Sequence record: KF055347
Length of the DNA stretch: 64,000 nt
DNA from: Escherichia phage JH2
Strand: one strand, 5' to 3'
Under the pieces are notes generated by a model that saw only the letters and a list, made by a program, of their open reading frames with translations, was not told the DNA's origin and did not search any database. Made by a program: the position numbers and the translations under genes. Every line of letters begins with the position of its first letter. Position 1 is the stretch's first letter. Below, piece after piece: positions 45,901 to 52,568 of this stretch.

Positions 45901-45976
45901 TGGAGAATCCGAAGGGACTCGAACCCTTATAAACCTGTTTTGCAGACAGGCACATATCCATTTCTGTCACGGATTC
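45901..45976 (-). tRNA. tRNA-Cys (anticodon GCA)
   Basis: Cloverleaf read by eye: CCA encoded, T-arm AAGGG/CCCTT with TTCGAGT loop, anticodon loop CUGCAAA, acceptor 7 bp. Confidence 0.7.
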
Positions 45977-45980
45977 AAAT

Positions 45981-46073
45981 TGGAGGAAGATACCAGACTT
46001 GAACTGGTACACCGATTTCTCAGCTACTGGCAGTTTAGCAAACTGCTCCCTTACCTTTTAGGGTTAATCTTCC
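45981..46073 (-). tRNA. tRNA-Ser (anticodon GCT), long variable arm
   Basis: T-arm ACCAG/CTGGT, anticodon arm GCAGT-UUGCUAA-ACUGC, ~21-nt variable arm, perfect 7-bp acceptor. Confidence 0.7.
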
Positions 46074-46074
46074 A

Positions 46075-46809
46075 TTATTTCTGTAATGCGTTCTTCATTT
46101 CTGGTGTTGCAATAGTGTCAATCACACCAGTTTTACAAGCATCATCAAACCAGTCTGGTAAGATACCTGCTAAGAACCCATTGATATTCGTTTTAAGGTA
46201 CTCTGCAATAAGGGCAGCTTCTTCTTCAATCATCTGCACAACTTCATCTGCATAAGCTGTAATCTTTGAGATACCTTCATTAATCTTGCTAACAGCTTGG
46301 TTAGCTAAATCAGAAATAGTATCAAGACCTTCATCAATAGCATCTTGTAAGTCACTTAATACACCATTAACACCATCTAGTGCGCTGTTAATTGTGTCAA
46401 TAGCTTTTTGACCATACTCTGTAGCAACACCCATAATACCACTAAATGGTGTACAACCGACTTGCTCTCCTGCTGCACCCATAACATTGGAATACCCCTT
46501 TGCTACCTGCATACGTGATGAAAACTCATCAATAGACTTTTGACCATAGTCTGTTAGGGTCTTAGTAGTTGCTGTAGTGCTTGTAAGGCTTGTTGTAAAG
46601 CTGTTTAGAAGGGCTGTTGTGAGTCCAGCAGCAACAAGTTTATCCTTTATTGTAGGGTCTGCTACAGAGCTAATAGAGCTTACAAGTGATGTAGAGGCAG
46701 CTACGGTTCCACCGAGAACTGCTGCACCAGTAATAAGGGGATTAGAAAACCCTCTACCGGTTTTTAAGAGATTAAAAATCTCCTTACCTTGTTCTGTCAT
46801 CTCTTTCAT
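46075..46809 (-). CDS. hypothetical Ala/Ser/Thr-rich protein embedded in tRNA array
   Basis: ORF trimmed to MKEMTEQ... after AAAGGTG to avoid overlapping the upstream tRNA. Confidence 0.5.
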   Translation of the reverse strand: MKEMTEQGKEIFNLLKTGRGFSNPLITGAAVLGGTVAASTSLVSSISSVADPTIKDKLVAAGLTTALLNSFTTSLTSTTATTKTLTDYGQKSIDEFSSRMQVAKGYSNVMGAAGEQVGCTPFSGIMGVATEYGQKAIDTINSALDGVNGVLSDLQDAIDEGLDTISDLANQAVSKINEGISKITAYADEVVQMIEEEAALIAEYLKTNINGFLAGILPDWFDDACKTGVIDTIATPEMKNALQK

Positions 46810-46825
46810 TAAGCACCTTTGAAAT

Positions 46826-46902
46826 TGGTAGTCCAGTGGGATTTGAACCCTCTTCTCATGTTTTTCAGACACGCGCTTTAACCATATAAGCTACTTGGAC
46901 TG
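46826..46902 (-). tRNA. tRNA-Phe (anticodon GAA)
   Basis: Anticodon arm CGUGU-CUGAAAA-ACAUG; T-loop UUCAAAU; T-stem and acceptor each carry one mismatch, ends approximate. Confidence 0.6.
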
Positions 46903-46907
46903 TAAAT

Positions 46908-46983
46908 TGGGGTGACCTACGGGATTTGAACCCGTATAGACCATGTTCACAGCATGGGTCATTACCTTTTATGATAAGGCCAC
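46908..46983 (-). tRNA. tRNA-His (anticodon GTG)
   Basis: Perfect T-arm ACGGG/CCCGU, anticodon loop with GUG, 76 nt. Confidence 0.7.
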
Positions 46984-47014
46984 ATTTAAGGACTCTCGTA
47001 AGAACCCTTAGAAG

Positions 47015-47090
47015 TGGCAGCGGCATAAGGATTTGAACCTTAATAAGACAGCTTCAGAGACTGCTGCATTGCCAGTTATGCTATACCGCT
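47015..47090 (-). tRNA. tRNA-Gln (anticodon CTG)
   Basis: T-arm TAAGG/CCTTA, D-arm GCAT/ATGC, anticodon stem with two G.U pairs, loop CUCUGAA. Confidence 0.6.
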
Positions 47091-47095
47091 AAATT

Positions 47096-47174
47096 TGGTA
47101 CTCCATATCGGATTCGAACCGATACATAACACAGATTTTAAGTCTGGCCTCTCTGCCAATTGGAGTAATGGAGC
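47096..47174 (-). tRNA. tRNA-Leu (anticodon TAA), atypical short variable region
   Basis: Perfect T-arm; anticodon loop CUUAAAA; ~7-nt variable region instead of a long arm, so identity is tentative. Confidence 0.5.
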
Positions 47175-47176
47175 AT

Positions 47177-47252
47177 TGGCGGGGGATGTTGGAATTGAAC
47201 CAACTTCTTCGATTTCAAAGACCGAGGTTTTAACCTTGTAAACTAATCCCCT
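47177..47252 (-). tRNA. tRNA-Gln (anticodon TTG)
   Basis: Perfect T-arm GTTGG/CCAAC; anticodon loop CUUUGAA. Confidence 0.6.
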
Positions 47253-47260
47253 TTAAATCT

Positions 47261-47818
47261 TTACTTTCTCAGTGGATGAATAAAGAATGCCAACATAACT
47301 CTTTCCCTTGAGAATGCTCTTTCTTCTGGGACAACACTTTTTAGTTTCCACCCAACATAAATTCTCCAGTAAAATTGTTTACCAAAGACTTTGATTGATG
47401 GGACAAAAGCGAATAATCCCCAAGCATTGCTGTTCCACATTAGGAGATAACCAGTCTGATTATCTTCAGGGTCAGAACTTACGTTGATATTACCTTTCCA
47501 CTTAGTAACATCTTTTACATCTCTTCCTAATACATGGTAAGAGAAGTTATAAGCTTTGTTTCTCCAGAGCCATCCAACTCTCTGCAAATAGACACCAAGC
47601 TTACCAATCTTTCTAATCTTAGCCCATCGTTTAATGTGACCTTCATCACCATCAATAGGGTTGTCATATGTCTCCATCCATCTGAATCCAAAAGGTAGAT
47701 GTCCTTTCTTCTCACTATAGAATGGAACTACAAAAGGTGCTAAGATAACTGCTAAGGTTGCTGCCAATGGGTCTAACAAAGCTAGGAAAATCCATGAAGC
47801 ATACTTCAAATATCTCAT
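47261..47818 (-). CDS. hypothetical membrane protein embedded in tRNA array
   Basis: 185 aa, N-terminal TM helices (WIFLALLDPLAATLAVILAPFVVPF); AAGAGG RBS. Confidence 0.5.
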   Translation of the reverse strand: MRYLKYASWIFLALLDPLAATLAVILAPFVVPFYSEKKGHLPFGFRWMETYDNPIDGDEGHIKRWAKIRKIGKLGVYLQRVGWLWRNKAYNFSYHVLGRDVKDVTKWKGNINVSSDPEDNQTGYLLMWNSNAWGLFAFVPSIKVFGKQFYWRIYVGWKLKSVVPEERAFSRERVMLAFFIHPLRK

Positions 47819-47830
47819 TTAAATAGCCTC

Positions 47831-47906
47831 TTTAAATTGGTGCAGGATAAGGGATTCGAACCCCTATTAACAGCTTCGTAGACTGTTGCTCTATCCATTT
47901 GAACTA
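47831..47906 (-). tRNA. tRNA-Arg (anticodon ACG)
   Basis: T-arm with TTCGAAT loop; anticodon loop CUACGAA; acceptor 7 bp. Confidence 0.65.
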
Positions 47907-47911
47907 ATCCT

Positions 47912-47989
47912 GCAAAATTGGTGTTCCAAGACGGATTCGAACCGTCACTAATACAAGGTTTGAGCTTGCATCCTCTGCCAATTGGGATA
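47912..47989 (-). tRNA. tRNA-Leu (anticodon CAA), atypical short variable region
   Basis: Perfect T-arm GACGG/CCGTC; anticodon loop CUCAAAC; 78 nt without long extra arm. Confidence 0.5.
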
Positions 47990-47990
47990 C

Positions 47991-48065
47991 TGGAACGTGG
48001 TACTCACTAAAGGACTTGAACCTTTTTCTTCATCTTGTAAGGGTGATGTTTTACCATATAAACTA
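47991..48065 (-). tRNA. tRNA-Val (anticodon TAC)
   Basis: Perfect T-arm AAAGG/CCTTT; anticodon loop CUUACAA. Confidence 0.65.
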
Positions 48066-48160
48066 AGCGAGTATGAAAGAGGTCTGAAGTTGTGCCGCTA
48101 ACTCAACTCCGTGGAATTTGTTACGGTCTTCAGTTGACACCAGCGGTCTTTCACTTGACC

Positions 48161-48236
48161 TCTGAATTGGTGCTCCCACAAGGATTCGAACCCTGATAAG
48201 TTGCTTACAAGGCAACCGTAATAGCCAATTATACGA
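48161..48236 (-). tRNA. tRNA-Thr (anticodon TGT)
   Basis: Perfect anticodon stem GTTGC/GCAAC; loop CUUGUAA. Confidence 0.7.
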
Positions 48237-48243
48237 TAGGAGC

Positions 48244-48318
48244 ATTAATTTGGAGCATCCAGAGGGAATCGAACCCTCAACCTCAGTTTGGAAGACTGTA
48301 ATTTTCCCGTTTAAACTA
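48244..48318 (-). tRNA. tRNA-Gly (anticodon TCC)
   Basis: Perfect T-arm GAGGG/CCCTC and perfect acceptor GCATCCA/TGGATGC; anticodon loop CUUCCAA. Confidence 0.7.
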
Positions 48319-48324
48319 TGGATG

Positions 48325-48400
48325 CACTAATTGGTGGAGTCACTGAGAATTGAACTCAGTTCCCGAGTTTGCAAAACTCGAATTTTAACCATATAAACTA
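48325..48400 (-). tRNA. tRNA-Ala (anticodon TGC)
   Basis: Perfect T-arm CTGAG/CTCAG and anticodon stem CGAGT/ACTCG; loop UUUGCAA. Confidence 0.7.
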
Positions 48401-48406
48401 TGACCC

Positions 48407-48482
48407 CAATGTTTGGTGCAGGTGGAGGGAATTGAACCCATCGTCTTACTGATTAAGAGTCAGCCGCATAACCATTTTGCTA
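48407..48482 (-). tRNA. tRNA-Lys (anticodon CTT)
   Basis: Perfect acceptor GCAGGTG/CACCTGC; anticodon loop CUCUUAA; weak T-stem; paralog of the tRNA at 49729. Confidence 0.6.
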
Positions 48483-48489
48483 CACCTGC

Positions 48490-48567
48490 ATTAATTTGGT
48501 AGGAGACAAGGGATTCGAACCCTCAAACACCAACTTCTAAGGATGGTAGGTTTACCAATTACCGTCA
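48490..48567 (-). tRNA. tRNA-Leu (anticodon TAG), atypical
   Basis: T-arm AAGGG/CCCTC; anticodon loop CUUAGAA; acceptor pairing needs 2 extra nt near the D-arm; no long variable arm. Confidence 0.5.
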
Positions 48568-48829
48568 ATCTCCCATTAAATCTTTTTAGAGAACTTCTAA
48601 GAACCTAAGCAACAAGGTTCCACAACAAGCTGTAATAACCTTAGAAGCCCTCTAAAAAGACCTAAATTGGTCTTTGCATAGTCTTGTTTAATCCGGTGAC
48701 TAGAACCTTTGGAGAGCTTGATATTATCTCTTCTCCGTGACACCTACTAGGTGCTTTATCAGTGTGTACGACAATACACGAGGGATACCAAAGCAACATC
48801 CGAATGAAGCTTGGCTTTAAATCTTATTA

Positions 48830-48919
48830 GGCGGTAAGTAAAGGAGTCGAACCCTCACCGTATCTCTACAGTGGCAACAGTTTTCAAGACTGTTTGGCTG
48901 CCATTAGCCGCTACCTACC
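48830..48919 (-). tRNA. tRNA-Ser (anticodon TGA), long variable arm
   Basis: Perfect anticodon stem ACAGT/ACTGT with loop CUUGAAA; ~20-nt variable arm; CCA only partly encoded. Confidence 0.6.
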
Positions 48920-48932
48920 CCTAATAAGACTT

Positions 48933-49015
48933 TGGCATGGGACGGAGGAGTTGAACCCCTTTGAAACGGTTTTGGAGGCCGTTGCTCATGCCTTAGAGTC
49001 TTAACATCGTCCCAC
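48933..49015 (-). tRNA. tRNA-Trp (anticodon CCA), with ~7 extra nt between D-arm and acceptor
   Basis: Anticodon arm ACGGC-CUCCAAA-ACCGU; acceptor strands pair only if the gene is ~83 nt. Confidence 0.5.
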
Positions 49016-49157
49016 ACTATAATTCGAAGCTTACCGTATTTTCGCAACACTGTAAAGCCCCTTCTCAGATTATTTACATGTTCTGGAAAACATGAGATAC
49101 AGACCACCTCCTTACACGGAGACCCGATAAGGTCGTCTAAGCAATCTGCTAACTATT

Positions 49158-49234
49158 TGGCACACCCTACAGGATTCGAACCTGTAACTCAATGATTAGA
49201 AGTCATTTGCTCTGTCCAGTTGAACTAAGGGTGC
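49158..49234 (-). tRNA. tRNA-Arg (anticodon TCT)
   Basis: Perfect T-arm ACAGG/CCTGT and anticodon stem AATGA/TCATT; loop CUUCUAA. Confidence 0.7.
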
Positions 49235-49570
49235 ATTAATCTTTAAAGACTCTCTTAGAAAGCCCTTAAAGATGCCCACCTTATTAATCATACCGTGGGC
49301 GAGTACGCCAAATTCTTTGATGAGGGATTGGAAGACCTCACTGGTGTTTAGCCTATCAAGCTACTGCCAGAAAAACATTGTCGTTTGCATTTATTTTAAA
49401 TTTGCAAAATAGACGCTACGCAACGAAAACTATTCAGAATATGTACAACAAATTTCCCCACATTGTGTTACGTCTAACGCTCATGTATTGGTGTTTGAAT
49501 TATACATATTATGAAGTATTTTAGTTACTATAAAGTGGTCACATCTCAATGTCAACAACTTTATTGAAAT

Positions 49571-49645
49571 TGGTTGTAGGTGAGGGTATCGAACCCTCTT
49601 CTAACGGTTATCAGCCGTTTGCATTACCATTTATGCTAACCCACA
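49571..49645 (-). tRNA. tRNA-Ile (anticodon GAT)
   Basis: Perfect T-arm GAGGG/CCCTC and anticodon stem AACGG/CCGTT; loop CUGAUAA. Confidence 0.7.
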
Positions 49646-49647
49646 AT

Positions 49648-49724
49648 TGGAGGTTCAGATGGGAATCGAACCCACATTCATAGGGCTTATGAAACCCTTG
49701 CATTACCTTATCTGCGACTGAACC
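49648..49724 (-). tRNA. tRNA-Met (anticodon CAT)
   Basis: Perfect acceptor GGTTCAG/CTGAACC; anticodon loop UUCAUAA. Confidence 0.6.
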
Positions 49725-49728
49725 ATAT

Positions 49729-49804
49729 TGGTAGAAGTGGAGGGATTCGAACCCATCGCCTGTCAGATTAAAAGTCTGCCGCATCACCATTCTGCTACAC
49801 TTCC
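49729..49804 (-). tRNA. tRNA-Lys (anticodon TTT)
   Basis: Paralog of the tRNA at 48407 with the same atypical T-stem; anticodon loop CUUUUAA. Confidence 0.6.
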
Positions 49805-49810
49805 ATTAAA

Positions 49811-49950
49811 TTATCTTTGTAGATAAGCTACCCAGACTTGCTTAAGGTCTGTAGCGATGTGCTTTGTTGGGTTTAAATCTAGAATTTACCCTTTCACCCT
49901 TTGTGGTCGCATACTCACAGGTAAGCTTAATAACTTATCTACAAAGATAA
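49811..49950 (-). ncRNA. candidate structured ncRNA closed by a perfect 17-bp long-range stem
   Basis: TTATCTTTGTAGATAAG (49811-49827) is the exact reverse complement of CTTATCTACAAAGATAA (49934-49950), enclosing 106 nt with internal hairpins; no ORF or tRNA. Confidence 0.35.
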
Positions 49951-49953
49951 TTA

Positions 49954-50084
49954 CCAGACCGTTGTTTATCATCTTAAGTGCTACCATTACACCAACTCGA
50001 CATCTGCCGAGTGAAGGAATCGAACCTTCGCCTTTTCTTTACCGAGAAATAGATTGTTTAAGTTTTGCTGTAAACGGTCTTCTG
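49954..50084 (-). ncRNA. candidate Y RNA-like ncRNA with circularly permuted tRNA-like module (YrlA-type)
   Basis: Minus-strand RNA: closing stem CAGAAGACCGUU...AACGGUCUGG; internal canonical T-arm GAAGG-UUCGAUU-CCUUC; acceptor-like stem CUCGGC-AGAU-GUCGAG capped by a tetraloop; D-arm-like GUG-UAAUGGUAG-CAC; no anticodon arm. Confidence 0.45.
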
Positions 50085-50097
50085 TAAATTTGTTGAG

Positions 50098-50174
50098 CCA
50101 GACCAAGTTTTAAATTTTTTCAAAATTAAATTGGCTTGAAAATATCATACGTACTTGCTGAATTTGGTCTTCTG
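50098..50174 (-). ncRNA. structured intergenic element with the same closing stem (CCAGACC / GGTCTTCTG family)
   Basis: Terminal inverted repeat CCAGACCAA ... TTGGTCTTCTG as in the 49954-50084 element; AT-rich interior. Confidence 0.3.
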
Positions 50175-50261
50175 CTCCTTTAAAGAATACTCGTAAGAAC
50201 TCTTTAAGGGAGGGGCTAAATAGCCCTCTCAAAACATCATCTTGAAATACTTATTATAATT

Positions 50262-50339
50262 TGGCGGTTACGAAGGGATTTGAACCCTCATCATCTCCCG
50301 TGACAGGGGAGTATTTTAACCAGATTAAACTACATAACC
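50262..50339 (-). tRNA. tRNA-Asp (anticodon GTC)
   Basis: Perfect anticodon stem CTCCC/GGGAG; loop CUGUCAC. Confidence 0.65.
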
Positions 50340-50345
50340 TTTATT

Positions 50346-50433
50346 TGGTGTGCCGTGTAGGAGTCGAACCTACCGAGTCTCAATGACAAGGGATTTACAG
50401 TCCCCACCGCTACCATCTACGGGATAACGACAC
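50346..50433 (-). tRNA. tRNA-Tyr (anticodon GTA), long variable arm
   Basis: Perfect T-arm GTAGG/CCTAC; anticodon loop CUGUAAA; ~15-nt variable arm. Confidence 0.6.
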
Positions 50434-50493
50434 ATTTTATTTTCTATTCAGGCTAAGGACTTGCACCTTACAAATCGGTGAGCAATCGCTTCT

Positions 50494-50570
50494 CTCCTAA
50501 ATTTGGCGGTTAGTCAGGGATTCGAACCCTGTGCCATTCGCTTAACAGGCGACCGCACATACCTTATGTG
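50494..50570 (-). tRNA. tRNA-Asn (anticodon GTT)
   Basis: Perfect T-arm CAGGG/CCCTG; anticodon loop CUGUUAA. Confidence 0.65.
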
Positions 50571-50591
50571 CTTCCTAACCTTAATACATTG

Positions 50592-50651
50592 CCAGACCGT
50601 GTTTTTTCTTTTATCCGCAAAAAGTAGTTTGTTGCTGCATACGGTCTTCTG
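50592..50651 (-). ncRNA. structured intergenic element (CCAGACC / GGTCTTCTG family)
   Basis: GCCAGACCGT ... ACGGTCTTCTG terminal inverted repeat enclosing ~45 nt with an internal hairpin. Confidence 0.3.
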
Positions 50652-50657
50652 CAAAAT

Positions 50658-50733
50658 TGGAGGCGGGTGCAGGAGTCGAACCTGCCGATACCATGCTAAT
50701 GAGACATGTGAGACGCCCTTTCTCTATACCCGC
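50658..50733 (-). tRNA. tRNA with CAT anticodon (Met, initiator or Ile-lysidine type); unusual U37
   Basis: Perfect T-arm GCAGG/CCTGC, D-arm GAGA/TCTC, anticodon loop CUCAUUA. Confidence 0.5.
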
Positions 50734-50745
50734 AATTCTTAATGA

Positions 50746-50818
50746 CCAGACCAAATCTCTTCTTTGTCCGATTTATCTTCAGATGAATAAGATTAAGTTT
50801 GCTGTAATTGGTCTTCTG
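50746..50818 (-). ncRNA. structured intergenic element (CCAGACC / GGTCTTCTG family)
   Basis: CCAGACCAA ... TTGGTCTTCTG terminal inverted repeat as in the other three family members. Confidence 0.3.
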
Positions 50819-50825
50819 TCAAAAC

Positions 50826-50903
50826 TGGCGTTCCAGAAGGGATTTGAACCCTCAAATATCCACTTTGAAAGAGTGGTGACTTTACCATTTTGTCTACTGG
50901 AAC
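50826..50903 (-). tRNA. tRNA-Glu (anticodon TTC)
   Basis: Perfect anticodon stem CCACT/AGTGG with loop CUUUCAA; perfect acceptor GTTCCAG/CTGGAAC. Confidence 0.65.
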
Positions 50904-50910
50904 ATTAATT

Positions 50911-50987
50911 TGGTCTCTGTTGGAGGACTTGAACCTCCGGCCTTACCGCCCCAAACGGAACGCTCTACCAAGCTGAGCTAAACAGAG
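50911..50987 (-). tRNA. tRNA-Pro (anticodon TGG)
   Basis: Perfect T-arm GGAGG/CCTCC and perfect acceptor; anticodon loop UUUGGGG. Confidence 0.65.
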
Positions 50988-51152: not shown

Positions 51153-52568
51153 TTACCAGATGTAACGGTCAATCATTACTGCTTTGAGCATTACGCTGAT
51201 TGGGTCAAACTTCTCACCACCAAGCAGAGCTTTTAAAGTGGCTGGAGAAAACCCTGATACCATTGCTACACCATTATCCTTAACAGACACTTCGCAAGTA
51301 CCATTACGGTTTGCTAAGTACCAGAATACTAGTTGTGGCATTTCATATCCAGCTTTTTTGTACTTACTCTGAATTGCTTCAAAGTTTGTACGACCGTTAG
51401 CTCCATCAACCTGATTGAACTCCATATCGGAGAAGATGATAAGCTTACTTGGCATATCTTTCTGAGTCAAGTTGTTTCTCTTACCTATTTCAAGAATACG
51501 GTCAAAAGCTGCTTGTAAGTTAGTTGAACCATATTCAACATGACGCATTACCTGACGATGACGGTTTCGTAAATCGCCACTCAGTTCAATGAAGTGAGGG
51601 TTTGTTGAATAAACCATTAACTCATTCTTAAAGCAGCCTGTATTGCGTTCTGCTACATACAAGGCAAGTGATACACCAATATCAAGGGCAGTGATTGAAC
51701 CAAGATTCACCCAAGACATTGAGCTTGAAACATCAGTCATACACAAGATGTTTTCACCTTCTGCCATCCAGTTTGGTAGTGCTTTCCACTGCTCATTAGC
51801 AACATCTGCATTACCATACTTAATAGATTTAATCACATCGTATGGGTAAACAGCACCAGCGTTAATCTTAGCCTCACCTTTTGAGAGTGACTCGATGTAA
51901 GCTTTGTAACGTTCCCCATCTTTACGGTTAAAGAGCTTTTGGTAACGCGCAGCAGCGAGTGAAGGAATCTTGCTGTAGTCAATCTTACCAAACTCATTAG
52001 CAGAGATTTTTTGCTCAACCGTATCAGACAGTGCAGATAACAGTGTGCGATACTCCTTCTCGCTTAAGTTTGCAAACTTACAGAAACGTTTTACAAACTG
52101 TTTGTGGCGTGGTTTTACTCGTGGTAACCACTTAGCTGCTAAACCTGCTGTTGCAGGGTCTAGTAATGCTGCTTCTAAATGTTTGAAGGCGTCTGTCTCA
52201 AAACGAGTACCTACGAAGATTTTGAAGTCATCAAAACGACCAAGCTCTGCAATCTTATCCATAATGCGAAGAACCTGTGTAGGTTCTAAAACCTTATCTT
52301 CAATCGCTTGAAGTAAAACAGTTCGGAAAGCTTTACGCTCACCCATACCTTCTCGTACATCTCGCATATGCAGTAAAATACGAACTGCAACATCAACATC
52401 CTCACGCAAAGCTTTGTAGAACAGGTCTGGTAAGATTTCTACATTGCTACGGCTTGAGCCAGCGGCTTTGTAAAAGTCTACCAGAGCAGACATTGATGAA
52501 GTATGGTTTACAGCACCATTTTCAGTTCGACCTGCATGAAGGTGCGCATGTTTAAATAACTCGCTCAT
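51153..52568 (-). CDS. Ro60/Rsr-like protein (TROVE-like helical N-domain + vWA domain with MIDAS motif)
   Basis: C-terminal vWA with MIDAS DVSSSM (human Ro60 DVSASM, recalled) and LIIFSDMEF (VFIVFTDNETF); upstream GERKAFRTVLLQAI and VYPYDVIKSIKYG resemble Ro60 TROVE segments; GAGAAGAGAG RBS. Confidence 0.55.
   Translation of the reverse strand: MSELFKHAHLHAGRTENGAVNHTSSMSALVDFYKAAGSSRSNVEILPDLFYKALREDVDVAVRILLHMRDVREGMGERKAFRTVLLQAIEDKVLEPTQVLRIMDKIAELGRFDDFKIFVGTRFETDAFKHLEAALLDPATAGLAAKWLPRVKPRHKQFVKRFCKFANLSEKEYRTLLSALSDTVEQKISANEFGKIDYSKIPSLAAARYQKLFNRKDGERYKAYIESLSKGEAKINAGAVYPYDVIKSIKYGNADVANEQWKALPNWMAEGENILCMTDVSSSMSWVNLGSITALDIGVSLALYVAERNTGCFKNELMVYSTNPHFIELSGDLRNRHRQVMRHVEYGSTNLQAAFDRILEIGKRNNLTQKDMPSKLIIFSDMEFNQVDGANGRTNFEAIQSKYKKAGYEMPQLVFWYLANRNGTCEVSVKDNGVAMVSGFSPATLKALLGGEKFDPISVMLKAVMIDRYIW

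What the first reader, a model, noticed from the sequence alone, without database searches (positions are those of the whole stretch)
49811..50818. Family of structured intergenic elements sharing the Y-like closing stem, plus a 17-bp perfect long-range stem
Four elements (49954-50084, 50098-50174, 50592-50651, 50746-50818) all begin with CCAGACC(G/A) and end with (C/T)GGTCTTCTG on the plus strand, so each minus-strand transcript would close with the same bulged helix. Next to them, 49811-49827 and 49934-49950 are exact 17-nt reverse complements enclosing 106 nt. They fill the tRNA-free gaps of the array. They may be further Y-like RNAs (YrlB-like, lacking the tRNA module), processing hairpins that release tRNAs, or small mobile repeats.
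Basis: seen in the sequence. Interest (0 to 1): 0.7.

Follow-up and report, generated by a model that had tools for sequence, protein, structure and literature searches.

The report
Phage Y-like RNAs beside Ro60-like gene
Four small structured RNAs in the tRNA gene cluster of a Felix O1-type phage are most likely the RNA partners ("Y RNAs") of a Ro60-like protein encoded just upstream, and the same RNA signature sits next to that protein family in very different phages.

Summary
The window is a Felix O1-like phage.

On the minus (tRNA) strand each element folds the same way. A 4-bp lower helix differs in sequence between elements. Then comes a 3x1 internal loop (AGA/G), a 7-bp upper helix (AGACCRN/NYGGUCU), and a single-stranded ACAGCAA.

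E1 (49950-50088) is not module-less. It is a circularly permuted tRNA-like RNA (V, T, acceptor-like and D arms), which is the YrlA design.

The 471-aa ORF directly upstream (51153-52568, Pfam DUF2828) has a full-length Ro60 fold.

The four elements keep their order in the Felixouna-, Susp- and Mooglevirus loci. More distant relatives have covarying versions. Helix+ACAGCAA elements flank DUF2828 genes in Klebsiella, Aeromonas, Campylobacter, Mycobacterium, Listeria and Vibrio phages. They are absent from Erwinia phage phiEa21-4, which has the tRNA array but no Ro-like gene.

Rfam has no matching family, and the canonical CGAA Ro-binding motif is absent.

Verdict: a new variant of the Y RNA kind. 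Binding to the protein is inferred, not shown.

The parts
50742..50822 (-). E4. A short Y-like RNA between tRNA-Glu and tRNA-Met. Lower helix UUGAC/GUCA, loop AGA/G, upper helix AGACCAA/UUGGUCU, then UUACAGCAA, then an AU-rich variable interior.
50588..50655 (-). E3. A short Y-like RNA between tRNA-Met and tRNA-Asn. Lower helix UUUGC/GCAA. The G-C pair next to C1-G becomes A-U in other phages.
50094..50178 (-). E2. A short Y-like RNA. Lower helix GGAGC/GCUC(A), which reads UUCC on the 3' side in Mooglevirus.
49950..50088 (-). E1. A YrlA-like RNA. It has the same closing module as E2-E4 and an interior made of a V hairpin, a T arm (GAAGG-UUCGAUU-CCUUC), an acceptor-like hairpin and a D arm (GUGU-AAUGGUA-GCAC). 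This is a circularly permuted tRNA-like domain.
49809..49952 (-). It sits between E1 and tRNA-Lys. Its first 3 nt overlap the 3' strand of E1's lower helix.
51153..52568 (-). 471-aa Ro60-like protein gene (Pfam DUF2828 + DUF7788, vWA domain with invariant DxSxS). It is the proposed protein partner.
   Evidence: PMC11482910
51014..51134 (-). Two sigma-70-like promoters (TTGACA-17-TAATAT and TTGACA-18-TAAAGT) upstream of tRNA-Pro. No terminator-like site was found on this strand before the next promoter at 49555-49527. The elements are therefore predicted to be co-transcribed with the tRNAs.
50262..50987 (-). Flanking tRNA genes: Pro, Glu, Met, Asn, Tyr, Asp. tRNA-Lys/Met/Ile lie downstream at 49571-49804. 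Processing of these tRNAs by RNase P and the 3' end enzymes would release the elements.

Best explanation
The four elements are phage-encoded Y-RNA-like noncoding RNAs. They are the likely RNA partners of the Ro60-like protein encoded immediately upstream.

Proposed sequence of events:
- They are transcribed on the minus strand as part of the tRNA polycistron, from the sigma-70-type promoters at about 51134 and 51043.
- They are cut out when the neighbouring tRNAs are matured. RNase P acts at the 5' end of the next tRNA, and the 3' end enzymes act at the previous one. E3 and E4 sit within 1-8 nt of tRNA ends.
- Each folds into a closing module: a 4-bp lower helix, a 3x1 internal loop (A-N-A opposite G), a 7-bp upper helix starting A-U, G-C, and then the single-stranded motif (U/A)NN(Y)CAGCAA.
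- This invariant module is proposed to be the protein-binding site. The fast-evolving interior is a variable effector or spacer part.
- E1 additionally displays a permuted tRNA-like domain, as bacterial YrlA does. That domain could recruit tRNA-binding enzymes or nucleases such as PNPase, modification enzymes or repair enzymes. It could also act as a tRNA decoy.
- The resulting RNPs would act in RNA quality control or counter-defence during infection. A preprint reports that the orthologous Bas63 gp130 counters the Ppl defence system.

Shown here: the structure and its covariation, the Ro60 fold, the genomic linkage, and the co-presence and co-absence pattern. Inferred: transcription, processing, protein binding and biological role.
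For: (1) Ro60 fold. The AF2 model of the 471-aa ORF has pLDDT 89.3 and pTM 0.89. The ten best Foldseek hits in the PDB are all Ro60/Rsr/TROVE chains over the full length. The best is 2i91_A (E 6e-8, TMq 0.67). 9kop (Thermus phage phiLo) and 2nvo (D. radiodurans Rsr) are among them. A MIDAS-type D279-x-S281-x-S283 is invariant in 45 homologues.

(2) Core structure. On 37 distinct cores, 92% of cells are paired and 10 of 12 pairs show changes on both sides. The covariation score is 0.60, against 0.20 in shuffles (0 of 500 reach it) and at most 0.14 in slid controls. RNAalifold finds the same core independently for E1, E2, E3 and E4.

(3) Distant relatives. The upper helix changes by compensation: AGACC/GGUCU becomes AGUAUC/GAUACU, AGACUA/UAGUCU, AGACUC/GAGUCU, AGUGUC/GACACU, AGAAUC/GAUUCU or AGCUUC/GAAGCU. 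C1-G becomes U-A. A5-U becomes G5-C in Yersinia phage P778.

(4) E1. RNAalifold predicts V, T, AS and D arms, with 16 of 31 pairs compensated. The AS stem has three unrelated sequences in three genera. ARAGORN calls a tRNA only after circular permutation at the AS loop, and the Y module then appears as a 48-nt 'intron' in the anticodon loop.

(5) Conservation. All four elements keep the same order in 31 of the 32 Felixouna-, Susp- and Mooglevirus loci scanned plus the window. L015 has lost a recognisable E1 3' end. Termini are invariant, while interiors vary with indels that are not multiples of 3.

(6) Association with the protein family. ACAGCAA occurs 22 times on the gene strand within 700 nt of DUF2828 genes in 8 non-Ounavirinae lineages. 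About 1.0 is expected (Poisson P about 4e-22). In most of these lineages a 7-bp helix was found directly 5' of the motif.

(7) Natural negative control. Erwinia phage phiEa21-4 belongs to the same subfamily and has the same DUF5681-gene-to-tRNA-array synteny. It has no Ro-like gene and no such motif in 84.6 kb.

(8) Strand specificity. The 5' motif occurs 144 times on the gene strand and once on the opposite strand in 415 kb. A 3' partner is found for 142 of 144, against 10% with shuffled tails. G-U pairs occur in the helices.

(9) Literature. Phage Ro60 homologues bind Y-like RNAs encoded next to them (PMC12135203). YrlA RNAs lie next to Ro60 genes and mimic tRNA (PMC4201824). Bas63 gp130 resembles Ro60, and its authors guessed that Y RNAs hide among the tRNA genes (PMC11482910).
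Against: - There are no expression, end-mapping or binding data for these RNAs.
- The canonical Ro-binding sequence (GNCGAAN0-1G / CGAA in bacteria and phiLo, GGUCCGA in metazoa) is absent.
- The Rfam YrlA and Y_RNA models give no hit even at E <= 10.
- The protein is not recognised by Pfam TROVE. A sequence profile reaches TROVE chains in the PDB only at E = 2.1.
- Within the close relatives the core hardly varies. Most covariation therefore comes from comparing paralogues and a few distant loci, where I chose the 3' partner by maximising pairing. That is an ascertainment bias.
- The single-sequence folding z-scores of E2-E4 are weak (-0.7 to -1.7).
- The covariance model built from the Ounavirinae cores recovers only the Klebsiella and Aeromonas elements, with marginal E-values.
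Confidence: 0.7

Rival explanations
1. The elements are structured spacers of the tRNA precursor. They would guide or insulate RNase P, RNase E or RNase III processing, or protect tRNA ends, and have no function of their own and no link to the Ro-like protein.
For: They fill inter-tRNA spacers almost exactly, within 1-8 nt of tRNA ends. They are predicted to be co-transcribed with the tRNAs. The neighbouring 22-bp stem is a textbook RNase III substrate shape. Other conserved hairpins, such as GGUUCUUACGAGAGUC, populate the same array.
Against: phiEa21-4 has a syntenic 26-tRNA array with plenty of spacers but none of these elements, and it lacks the Ro-like gene. In Mycobacterium phage Samty the elements follow the Ro-like gene with no adjacent tRNA. 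In Listeria, Campylobacter and Aeromonas phages they sit next to the gene rather than in an array. A processing signal would not need an invariant single-stranded ACAGCAA or a permuted tRNA-like domain.
Confidence: 0.12
2. They are functional small RNAs that work with a partner other than the Ro-like protein. Examples would be decoys or inhibitors of host tRNA-targeting nucleases, or base-pairing sRNAs. The linkage to the DUF2828 gene would then reflect a shared pathway rather than direct binding.
For: The tRNA-like domain of E1, and the ordinary-order tRNA-like chimeras in other phages, would suit a decoy role. The canonical Ro-binding motif is absent. In the Listeria phage an RtcB ligase gene lies nearby.
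Against: The part that is invariant across phyla is the closing helix plus ACAGCAA, not the tRNA-like part. Most copies have no tRNA-like part at all. The tight physical linkage to DUF2828 genes in 8 unrelated lineages is the pattern known for Ro60 and Y RNA pairs (PMC4201824, PMC12135203).
Confidence: 0.12
3. They are DNA-level features. Either they are inverted-repeat binding sites for a DNA-binding protein, or they are small mobile repeats (MITE-like) that have colonised the array.
For: The termini CCAGACC...GGTCTGG are inverted repeats at the DNA level, and there are four copies within 900 bp.
Against: The copies sit at fixed syntenic positions in three genera, with no extra copies elsewhere in the window or in the 415 kb of related loci. 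No target-site duplications were seen when reading the flanks. G-U pairs and the strand-specific ACAGCAA motif point to an RNA on the tRNA strand. Helices change by compensation while their sequence is free.
Confidence: 0.04

Closest known systems
YrlA (bacterial Y RNA-like A; Rfam RF02553; Chen et al. 2014, PMC4201824)
   Same: E1 is encoded next to a Ro60-fold gene. Its 5' and 3' ends pair into a stem with an internal loop. Its interior has a V hairpin, T arm, closed acceptor-like stem and D arm in that order, which is a permuted tRNA mimic.
   Different: There is no GNCGAAN0-1G motif. The Rfam model gives no match at E <= 10. E1 has a different conserved signature: an A-N-A/G loop plus ACAGCAA. 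The partner protein belongs to Pfam DUF2828, not TROVE. E1 is embedded in a tRNA operon rather than an rsr-rtcBA operon.
YrlB and other short Y RNAs (S. Typhimurium YrlB; Thermus phage phiLo Yrl1/Yrl2, PMC12135203)
   Same: E2-E4 are short stem / internal-loop / stem RNAs without a tRNA module. They share the putative protein-binding module with the tRNA-like paralogue and are encoded beside a phage Ro60 homologue.
   Different: They lack the CGAA motif. There are four paralogues plus a long-stem element. They lie downstream of the gene inside a tRNA array. No binding data exist, whereas phiLo Yrl1 and Yrl2 were shown to bind by EMSA and cryo-EM.
Ro60 / Rsr (TROVE + vWA ring proteins; PDB 1yvp, 2i91, 2nvo, 9kop)
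   Same: The 471-aa ORF has the same overall fold over its full length and a conserved MIDAS-type DxSxS. Bas63 gp130, a close relative, was independently noted to resemble Ro60 (PMC11482910).
   Different: Sequence identity to the solved chains is 11-16%. Pfam TROVE is not hit. A sequence profile against PDB sequences is not significant (E 2.1). The protein is shorter, at 471 aa against about 500-540.
Stable small RNAs of unknown function inside phage tRNA clusters (T4 'species 1 and 2' RNAs and the T5 small RNAs; from my own knowledge, not checked here)
   Same: Non-tRNA small RNAs are co-transcribed and co-processed with phage tRNAs.
   Different: As far as I know, those RNAs have not been linked to a Ro-like protein. 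I made no sequence comparison.

Membership tests
Y RNA (Ro60-associated ncRNA, functional definition) | Bound by a Ro60/Rsr orthologue in vivo | not testable with these tools
   Needs RIP/CLIP or EMSA with the 471-aa protein.
Y RNA (Ro60-associated ncRNA, functional definition) | Bacterial and phage members are encoded next to the Ro60 gene | tested here: met
   The Ro60-fold ORF at 51153-52568 ends 331 nt upstream of E4. All four elements lie within 1.2 kb downstream on the same strand.
Y RNA (Ro60-associated ncRNA, functional definition) | 5' and 3' ends pair into a stem interrupted by a conserved bulge or internal loop | tested here: met
   A 4-bp lower helix, a 3x1 loop and a 7-bp upper helix. 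92% of cells are paired and 10 of 12 pairs are compensated. RNAalifold agrees.
Y RNA (Ro60-associated ncRNA, functional definition) | Conserved Ro-binding sequence (GGUCCGA in metazoa; GNCGAAN0-1G / CGAA in bacteria and phage phiLo) | tested here: not met
   The 5' strand reads (N)CAGAAGACC. No CGAA is present. Motif definitions come from PMC4201824 and PMC12135203.
YrlA (Rfam RF02553) | Scores at or above the Rfam gathering threshold (69 bits) | tested here: not met
   No YrlA match on E1, either at E <= 10 in 5.8 kb or in a 171-nt search. The only YrlA hit, 17.3 bits, lies over tRNA-Phe/His.
YrlA (Rfam RF02553) | tRNA-like domain with V, T, acceptor-like (closed) and D stem-loops in that order | tested here: met
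   Met for E1 only. ARAGORN calls a tRNA after circular permutation. E2-E4 lack this domain.
Ro60 / TROVE protein family (for the 471-aa ORF) | HEAT-repeat ring plus C-terminal vWA domain | tested here: met
   Foldseek top 10 hits are all Ro60/Rsr/TROVE, with about 515-560 alignment columns (gaps included) and TMq up to 0.67. The model has pLDDT 89.
Ro60 / TROVE protein family (for the 471-aa ORF) | Recognised by the Pfam TROVE model or by sequence similarity to solved Ro60 chains | tested here: not met
   Pfam gives DUF2828 + DUF7788 + weak VWA_2 only. phmmer finds nothing. The profile gives E = 2.1 to TROVE chains 9l5y and 9kop.
Mobile repeat (MITE-like) | Copies at variable, non-syntenic positions, usually with target-site duplications | tested here: not met
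   Four copies at fixed positions and order in 31 of the 32 loci scanned plus the window (L015 lacks a recognisable E1). The 5' motif occurs only once elsewhere in the window, without a partner.
Intrinsic terminator | GC-rich hairpin followed by a U tract on the transcribed strand | tested here: not met
   No minus-strand terminator-like site lies within 49800-50830. The only minus-strand one overlaps the promoter at 51142-51111.

The most novel reading that the evidence does not exclude
The 'helix + single-stranded ACAGCAA' module defines a previously uncatalogued RNA family spread across phages. It would be the cognate ligand of the DUF2828 branch of Ro60-like proteins and would replace the canonical CGAA Y-RNA motif.

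The module appears in three scaffolds:
- short stem-loop RNAs;
- circularly permuted tRNA mimics;
- a replacement for the anticodon arm of otherwise ordinary tRNA-like RNAs.

In Felix O1-type phages a battery of four such RNAs is produced by the tRNA-processing machinery. With the Ro-like protein they would form RNPs that protect the phage against host RNA-targeting or other defences.
Probability: 0.5. Interest if true: 0.8.

Novelty: new variant of a known kind. Interest (0 to 1): 0.68.

Why it matters
Ro60 and Y RNA particles are conserved from bacteria to humans, yet their roles in phages are barely explored. Only one phage system, Thermus phiLo, has biochemical data. For Felix O1-type phages, a preprint noted the Ro60-like fold of the protein, linked it to countering the Ppl defence, and could only guess that Y RNAs hide among the tRNA genes.

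This analysis supplies concrete candidates: four RNAs with defined ends, a defined secondary structure and a short list of invariant nucleotides to mutate.

It also indicates that a large phage protein family has its own RNA signature, distinct from the classic Y RNA motif and absent from Rfam. The family gave 708 phage records in the phage collection and more than 2,800 homologues among the 8,000 candidates scored in the metagenome protein search.

That makes three questions directly testable. What does a divergent Ro60 ring recognise? Why do phages fuse that recognition module to tRNA mimics? How does the RNP help a tRNA-rich phage evade host defence?

Tried and rejected
- Rfam at gathering threshold found only tRNAs, both on the window and on 12 related loci. 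Rfam at E <= 10 on 5.8 kb and on 171 nt gave no Y_RNA or YrlA hit on any element.
- Single-sequence AlphaFold2 of the ORF was useless (pLDDT 45). I repeated it with a 45-sequence alignment.
- phmmer and a profile search against PDB sequences gave nothing significant.
The G3-C pair is broken in 9 of 37 cores with no compensation, and that register ignores the covarying flanking helix.
- My first regular expression ([CT]ANAAG-N8-CAGCA) missed the Yersinia phage P778 variants (CANAGG...), which I then found by eye.
- Covariance model R1, built from the 44-column cores, is too Felix-specific. It found the Klebsiella element (E 6e-4) and five marginal Aeromonas hits, but not the Gram-positive or mycobacterial ones.
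- Coding potential is unlikely. The plus-strand ORFs over the region also overlap tRNA genes on the other strand, and orthologous element lengths differ by 1-6 nt.
- Mobile-element, terminator and DNA-operator readings were rejected (see the rival explanations).
- Eight literature searches found no description of these RNAs. The closest is a speculative sentence in PMC11482910. The supplementary phage tables of PMC4201824 are not held, so I could not check which phages were covered there.
- The phage K transcriptome paper (PMC9241854) proved irrelevant.
Full report
**Context.** The window is a Felix O1-type myovirus. The best match is Salmonella phage MBP4696116 at 99.3%, and hundreds of Felixounavirus records match. 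The finding lies inside a minus-strand array of 26 tRNA genes at 45901-50987. Rfam at curated thresholds sees only tRNAs in the whole window.

**Observation check.**
- GGTCTTCTG occurs five times in 64 kb against 0.58 expected. Four of the five are the stated right ends.
- The four plus-strand CCAGACCR sites are exactly the stated left ends.
- The 17-nt perfect inverted repeat is real. It extends to 22 nt at 95% complementarity, at 49809-49830 / 49931-49952. As RNA it folds at -45.9 kcal/mol with z = -5.7.

**Anatomy on the tRNA strand.**
- Read on the minus strand, every element starts CAGAAGACC(R), has YCAGCAA exactly 14 nt after the first C, and ends (Y)GGUCUGG.
- The resulting model is a lower helix (those flanking pairs plus C1-G), a 3x1 internal loop (A-G-A opposite G), a 7-bp upper helix (AGACCRN/NYGGUCU), and then three nucleotides followed by single-stranded CAGCAA.
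- On 37 distinct cores from the window and related loci, this model has 92.3% of cells paired. Ten of 12 pairs show changes on both sides, in 103 compensated cells. The covariation score is 0.60, against 0.20 in column shuffles (0 of 500 reach it) and at most 0.14 when partners are slid.
- The outermost proposed pair (columns 2-44) is not supported, so the lower helix is 4 bp.
- RNAalifold finds the same core independently in the orthologue sets of E1, E2, E3 and E4.
However, its G3-C pair is broken in all 9 cores where position 3 changed, with no compensation, and it leaves out the covarying flank.
- Caveat: within the close relatives the core is almost invariant. In distant loci I picked the 3' partner by maximising pairing. 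A shuffled-tail control finds such a partner 10% of the time, against 142 of 144 in the real data.

**E1 is a permuted tRNA mimic.**
- The minimum-energy fold of E1 already shows a T-arm-like hairpin, a second hairpin and a D-arm-like hairpin.
- On 18 orthologues, RNAalifold predicts a V hairpin, a 5-bp T stem with loop UUCGAWU, a 7-bp acceptor-like stem closed by a loop, and a 4-bp D stem with loop AAUGGNA.
- Sixteen of 31 pairs are compensated. The acceptor-like stem has unrelated sequences in Felixounavirus, Suspvirus and Mooglevirus, all of them paired.
- ARAGORN finds nothing in the native order. After circular permutation at the acceptor-like loop it calls a tRNA with a long variable arm. 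The closing module then appears as a 48-nt 'intron' in the anticodon loop.
- This is the architecture described for bacterial YrlA (PMC4201824). E2-E4 have only AU-rich, fast-evolving interiors.

**The gene upstream.**
- The 471-aa ORF at 51153-52568 (minus strand) ends 165 nt before the first tRNA of the array.
- Pfam assigns DUF2828 + DUF7788 with a weak vWA match. Sequence searches against PDB chains are not significant.
- An AlphaFold2 model built from 45 homologues is confident (pLDDT 89.3, pTM 0.89).
- Its ten best Foldseek matches in the PDB are all Ro60/Rsr/TROVE chains aligned over the full length. The best is 2i91_A (E 6e-8, TMq 0.67). 9kop from Thermus phage phiLo and 2nvo from D. 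radiodurans are among them.
- D279-x-S281-x-S283 is invariant, which fits a MIDAS site.
- A preprint on the Felixounavirus Bas63 independently noted that gp130, directly upstream of the tRNA genes, resembles Ro60. It reported that gp130 counters the Ppl defence and speculated that some 'tRNA genes' might be Y RNAs (PMC11482910). No RNA was identified there.

**Conservation and covariation in relatives.**
- In 31 of the 32 Felixouna-, Susp- and Mooglevirus loci scanned, and in the window, all four elements are present in the same order. L015 has lost a recognisable E1 3' end.
- Termini and CAGCAA are invariant. Interiors differ by substitutions and by indels of 1-6 nt, which argues against coding.
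- In contigs whose Ro-like protein is only 53-63% identical, the elements persist with compensated helices: AGUAUC/GAUACU, AGACUA/UAGUCU, AGACUC/GAGUCU, AGUGUC/GACACU, AGAAUC/GAUUCU, AGCUUC/GAAGCU. C1-G becomes U-A.
- Yersinia phage P778 has CANAGG...CC-A-G, that is, A5-U changed to G5-C.
- The 5' motif occurs 144 times on the gene strand and once on the other strand in 415 kb.

**Association with the protein family beyond this subfamily.**
- Homologues of the protein occur in 708 phage records. These include Vibrio, Aeromonas, Campylobacter, Mycobacterium (annotated 'Ro-like RNA binding protein'), Listeria, Staphylococcus and Enterococcus phages.
- I found elements with a 7-bp helix followed by N3-4 and ACAGCAA directly next to the gene in each of the following:

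| Phage or contig | Elements found |
|---|---|
| Klebsiella phage KP13-16 | five: two short, three with tRNA-like domains |
| Aeromonas phage LAh_6 | several, upstream of the gene |
| IMG/VR contig L033 and the group L034/L036/L037 | at least one per locus |
| Campylobacter phage F358 | two, after tRNA-Met |
| Mycobacterium phage Samty | three, downstream, no tRNA adjacent |
| Listeria phage LMSP-25 | three, upstream |
| Vibrio phage XZ1 | one, weaker (6 of 7 helix pairs), in the 5' UTR |

- Across the eight non-Ounavirinae lineages, ACAGCAA occurs 22 times on the gene strand within 700 nt of the gene, against 1.0 expected from the rest of the same loci (Poisson P about 4e-22).
- Erwinia phage phiEa21-4 is the converse case. 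It is in the same subfamily and has the same DUF5681 gene followed directly by a 26-tRNA array. It has no Ro-like gene and no such motif in its 84.6-kb genome.
- None of these loci has a YrlA or other non-tRNA Rfam match.

**The long stem (49809-49952).**
- It is a separate conserved element between E1 and tRNA-Lys.
- Its closing stem of about 20 bp and its inner hairpin (CAGAC-CUUAAGCAAG-GUCUG) are kept with compensatory changes in Susp- and Mooglevirus and in more distant contigs. Fourteen of 29 pairs are compensated.
- In one distant contig (L039) the same inner domain appears, by eye, to be closed by a Y-like core carrying CAGCA. That reading is an inference.
- Its function is unknown. A stem of this length is the usual shape of an RNase III site, so a processing role is plausible.
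- Its first three nucleotides overlap the 3' strand of E1's lower helix.

**Transcription and release (inferred).**
- Three minus-strand promoter-like sites with perfect TTGACA lie at 51134-51106, 51043-51014 and 49555-49527.
- No minus-strand terminator-like site lies between the second and the third.
- E4, E3, E2, E1 and the long stem would therefore be co-transcribed with tRNA-Pro through tRNA-Ile. They would be freed by RNase P cleavage at the next tRNA and by 3' end processing of the previous one.
- E4 and E3 are separated from tRNA ends by 1-8 nt.

**Most likely mechanism.**
- The invariant closing module, made of the A-N-A/G loop, the first two upper-helix pairs and ACAGCAA, is the binding site for the Ro60-like ring.
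- The variable interior, or in E1 the tRNA mimic, is the effector part, as in bacterial Ro60, Y RNA and PNPase particles (PMC4201824, PMC12135203).
- I put this at 0.7. The rival readings are pure processing spacers (0.12), small RNAs with another partner (0.12) and DNA-level repeats (0.04).

**Comparison with known families.**
- The elements work like Y RNAs, with E1 like YrlA and E2-E4 like YrlB or phiLo Yrl1/2. They fail two membership criteria that were tested: the CGAA-type motif and the Rfam YrlA model.
- The protein has the Ro60 fold but is not a Pfam TROVE member.
- I found no description of these RNAs in eight literature searches.
- I therefore class the finding as a new variant of a known kind, with the RNA-protein link still to be shown experimentally.

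Noticed in passing
window 48939-49013 (minus strand): A conserved tRNA-like sequence with an apparent 8-bp acceptor stem, a T arm (GGGGUUCAACUCCUC) and a GCCA 3' end. ARAGORN does not call it, and Rfam tRNA-Sec scores only 23 bits. Very similar sequences occur in related contigs (L038, L039, L041).
   Followed up: no
window ~50177-50210, ~49235-49275, 46984-47014 (minus strand): A recurring small hairpin motif, GGUUCUUACGAGAGUC, with a UACG tetraloop and flanking CUUUAAAG-type arms, in several spacers of the tRNA array. It is also present in Erwinia phage phiEa21-4, so it is independent of the Ro-like gene. It may be a processing or stability element.
   Followed up: partly
window 48576-48601/48640-48665 and 48819-48831/48920-48932: Two more inverted repeats in the array. 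One is a 26-nt, 85% complementary hairpin next to tRNA-Leu. The other is a 13-nt repeat that brackets tRNA-Ser(tga) and would extend its acceptor stem in the precursor.
   Followed up: no
L004:5942-6060 (Klebsiella phage KP13-16) and L005:494-610 (Aeromonas phage LAh_6): tRNA-like RNAs in the ordinary (non-permuted) order, with acceptor stem, D arm and T arm. Their anticodon arm is replaced by a 7-bp hairpin followed by UUACAGCA(A). This is a third scaffold carrying the same module.
   Followed up: partly
L044 ~2455-2510 (Vibrio phage XZ1): A single AGACAUU-UUACAGCAA element lies in the 5' UTR of the Ro-like gene. Its candidate 3' strand overlaps the start codon, which hints at autoregulation of the protein's own mRNA.
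   Followed up: no
L047 5308-6455 (Listeria phage LMSP-25): An RtcB-type 'tRNA-splicing ligase' gene lies 1.3 kb downstream of the DUF2828 gene and its three ACAGCAA elements. This resembles the bacterial rsr-yrlBA-rtcBA arrangement.
   Followed up: no
L048/L049 (Erwinia phage phiEa21-4, whole genome): A natural negative control. It has the same synteny (DUF5681 gene directly followed by a 26-tRNA array), but no Ro-like gene and no Y-like motif anywhere in 84.6 kb.
   Followed up: yes
window 59598 (minus strand): One further match to the 5' motif ([CT]ANAAG-N8-CAGCA), outside the array and without a pairing 3' partner. About 0.25 such matches are expected by chance in 128 kb of both strands, so I read it as chance.
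   Followed up: partly
L015 (IMG/VR contig, E1 position): In this one close relative the E1 5' motif is intact but the expected GGUCUGG 3' end is missing. This could be a disrupted or rearranged E1.
   Followed up: no
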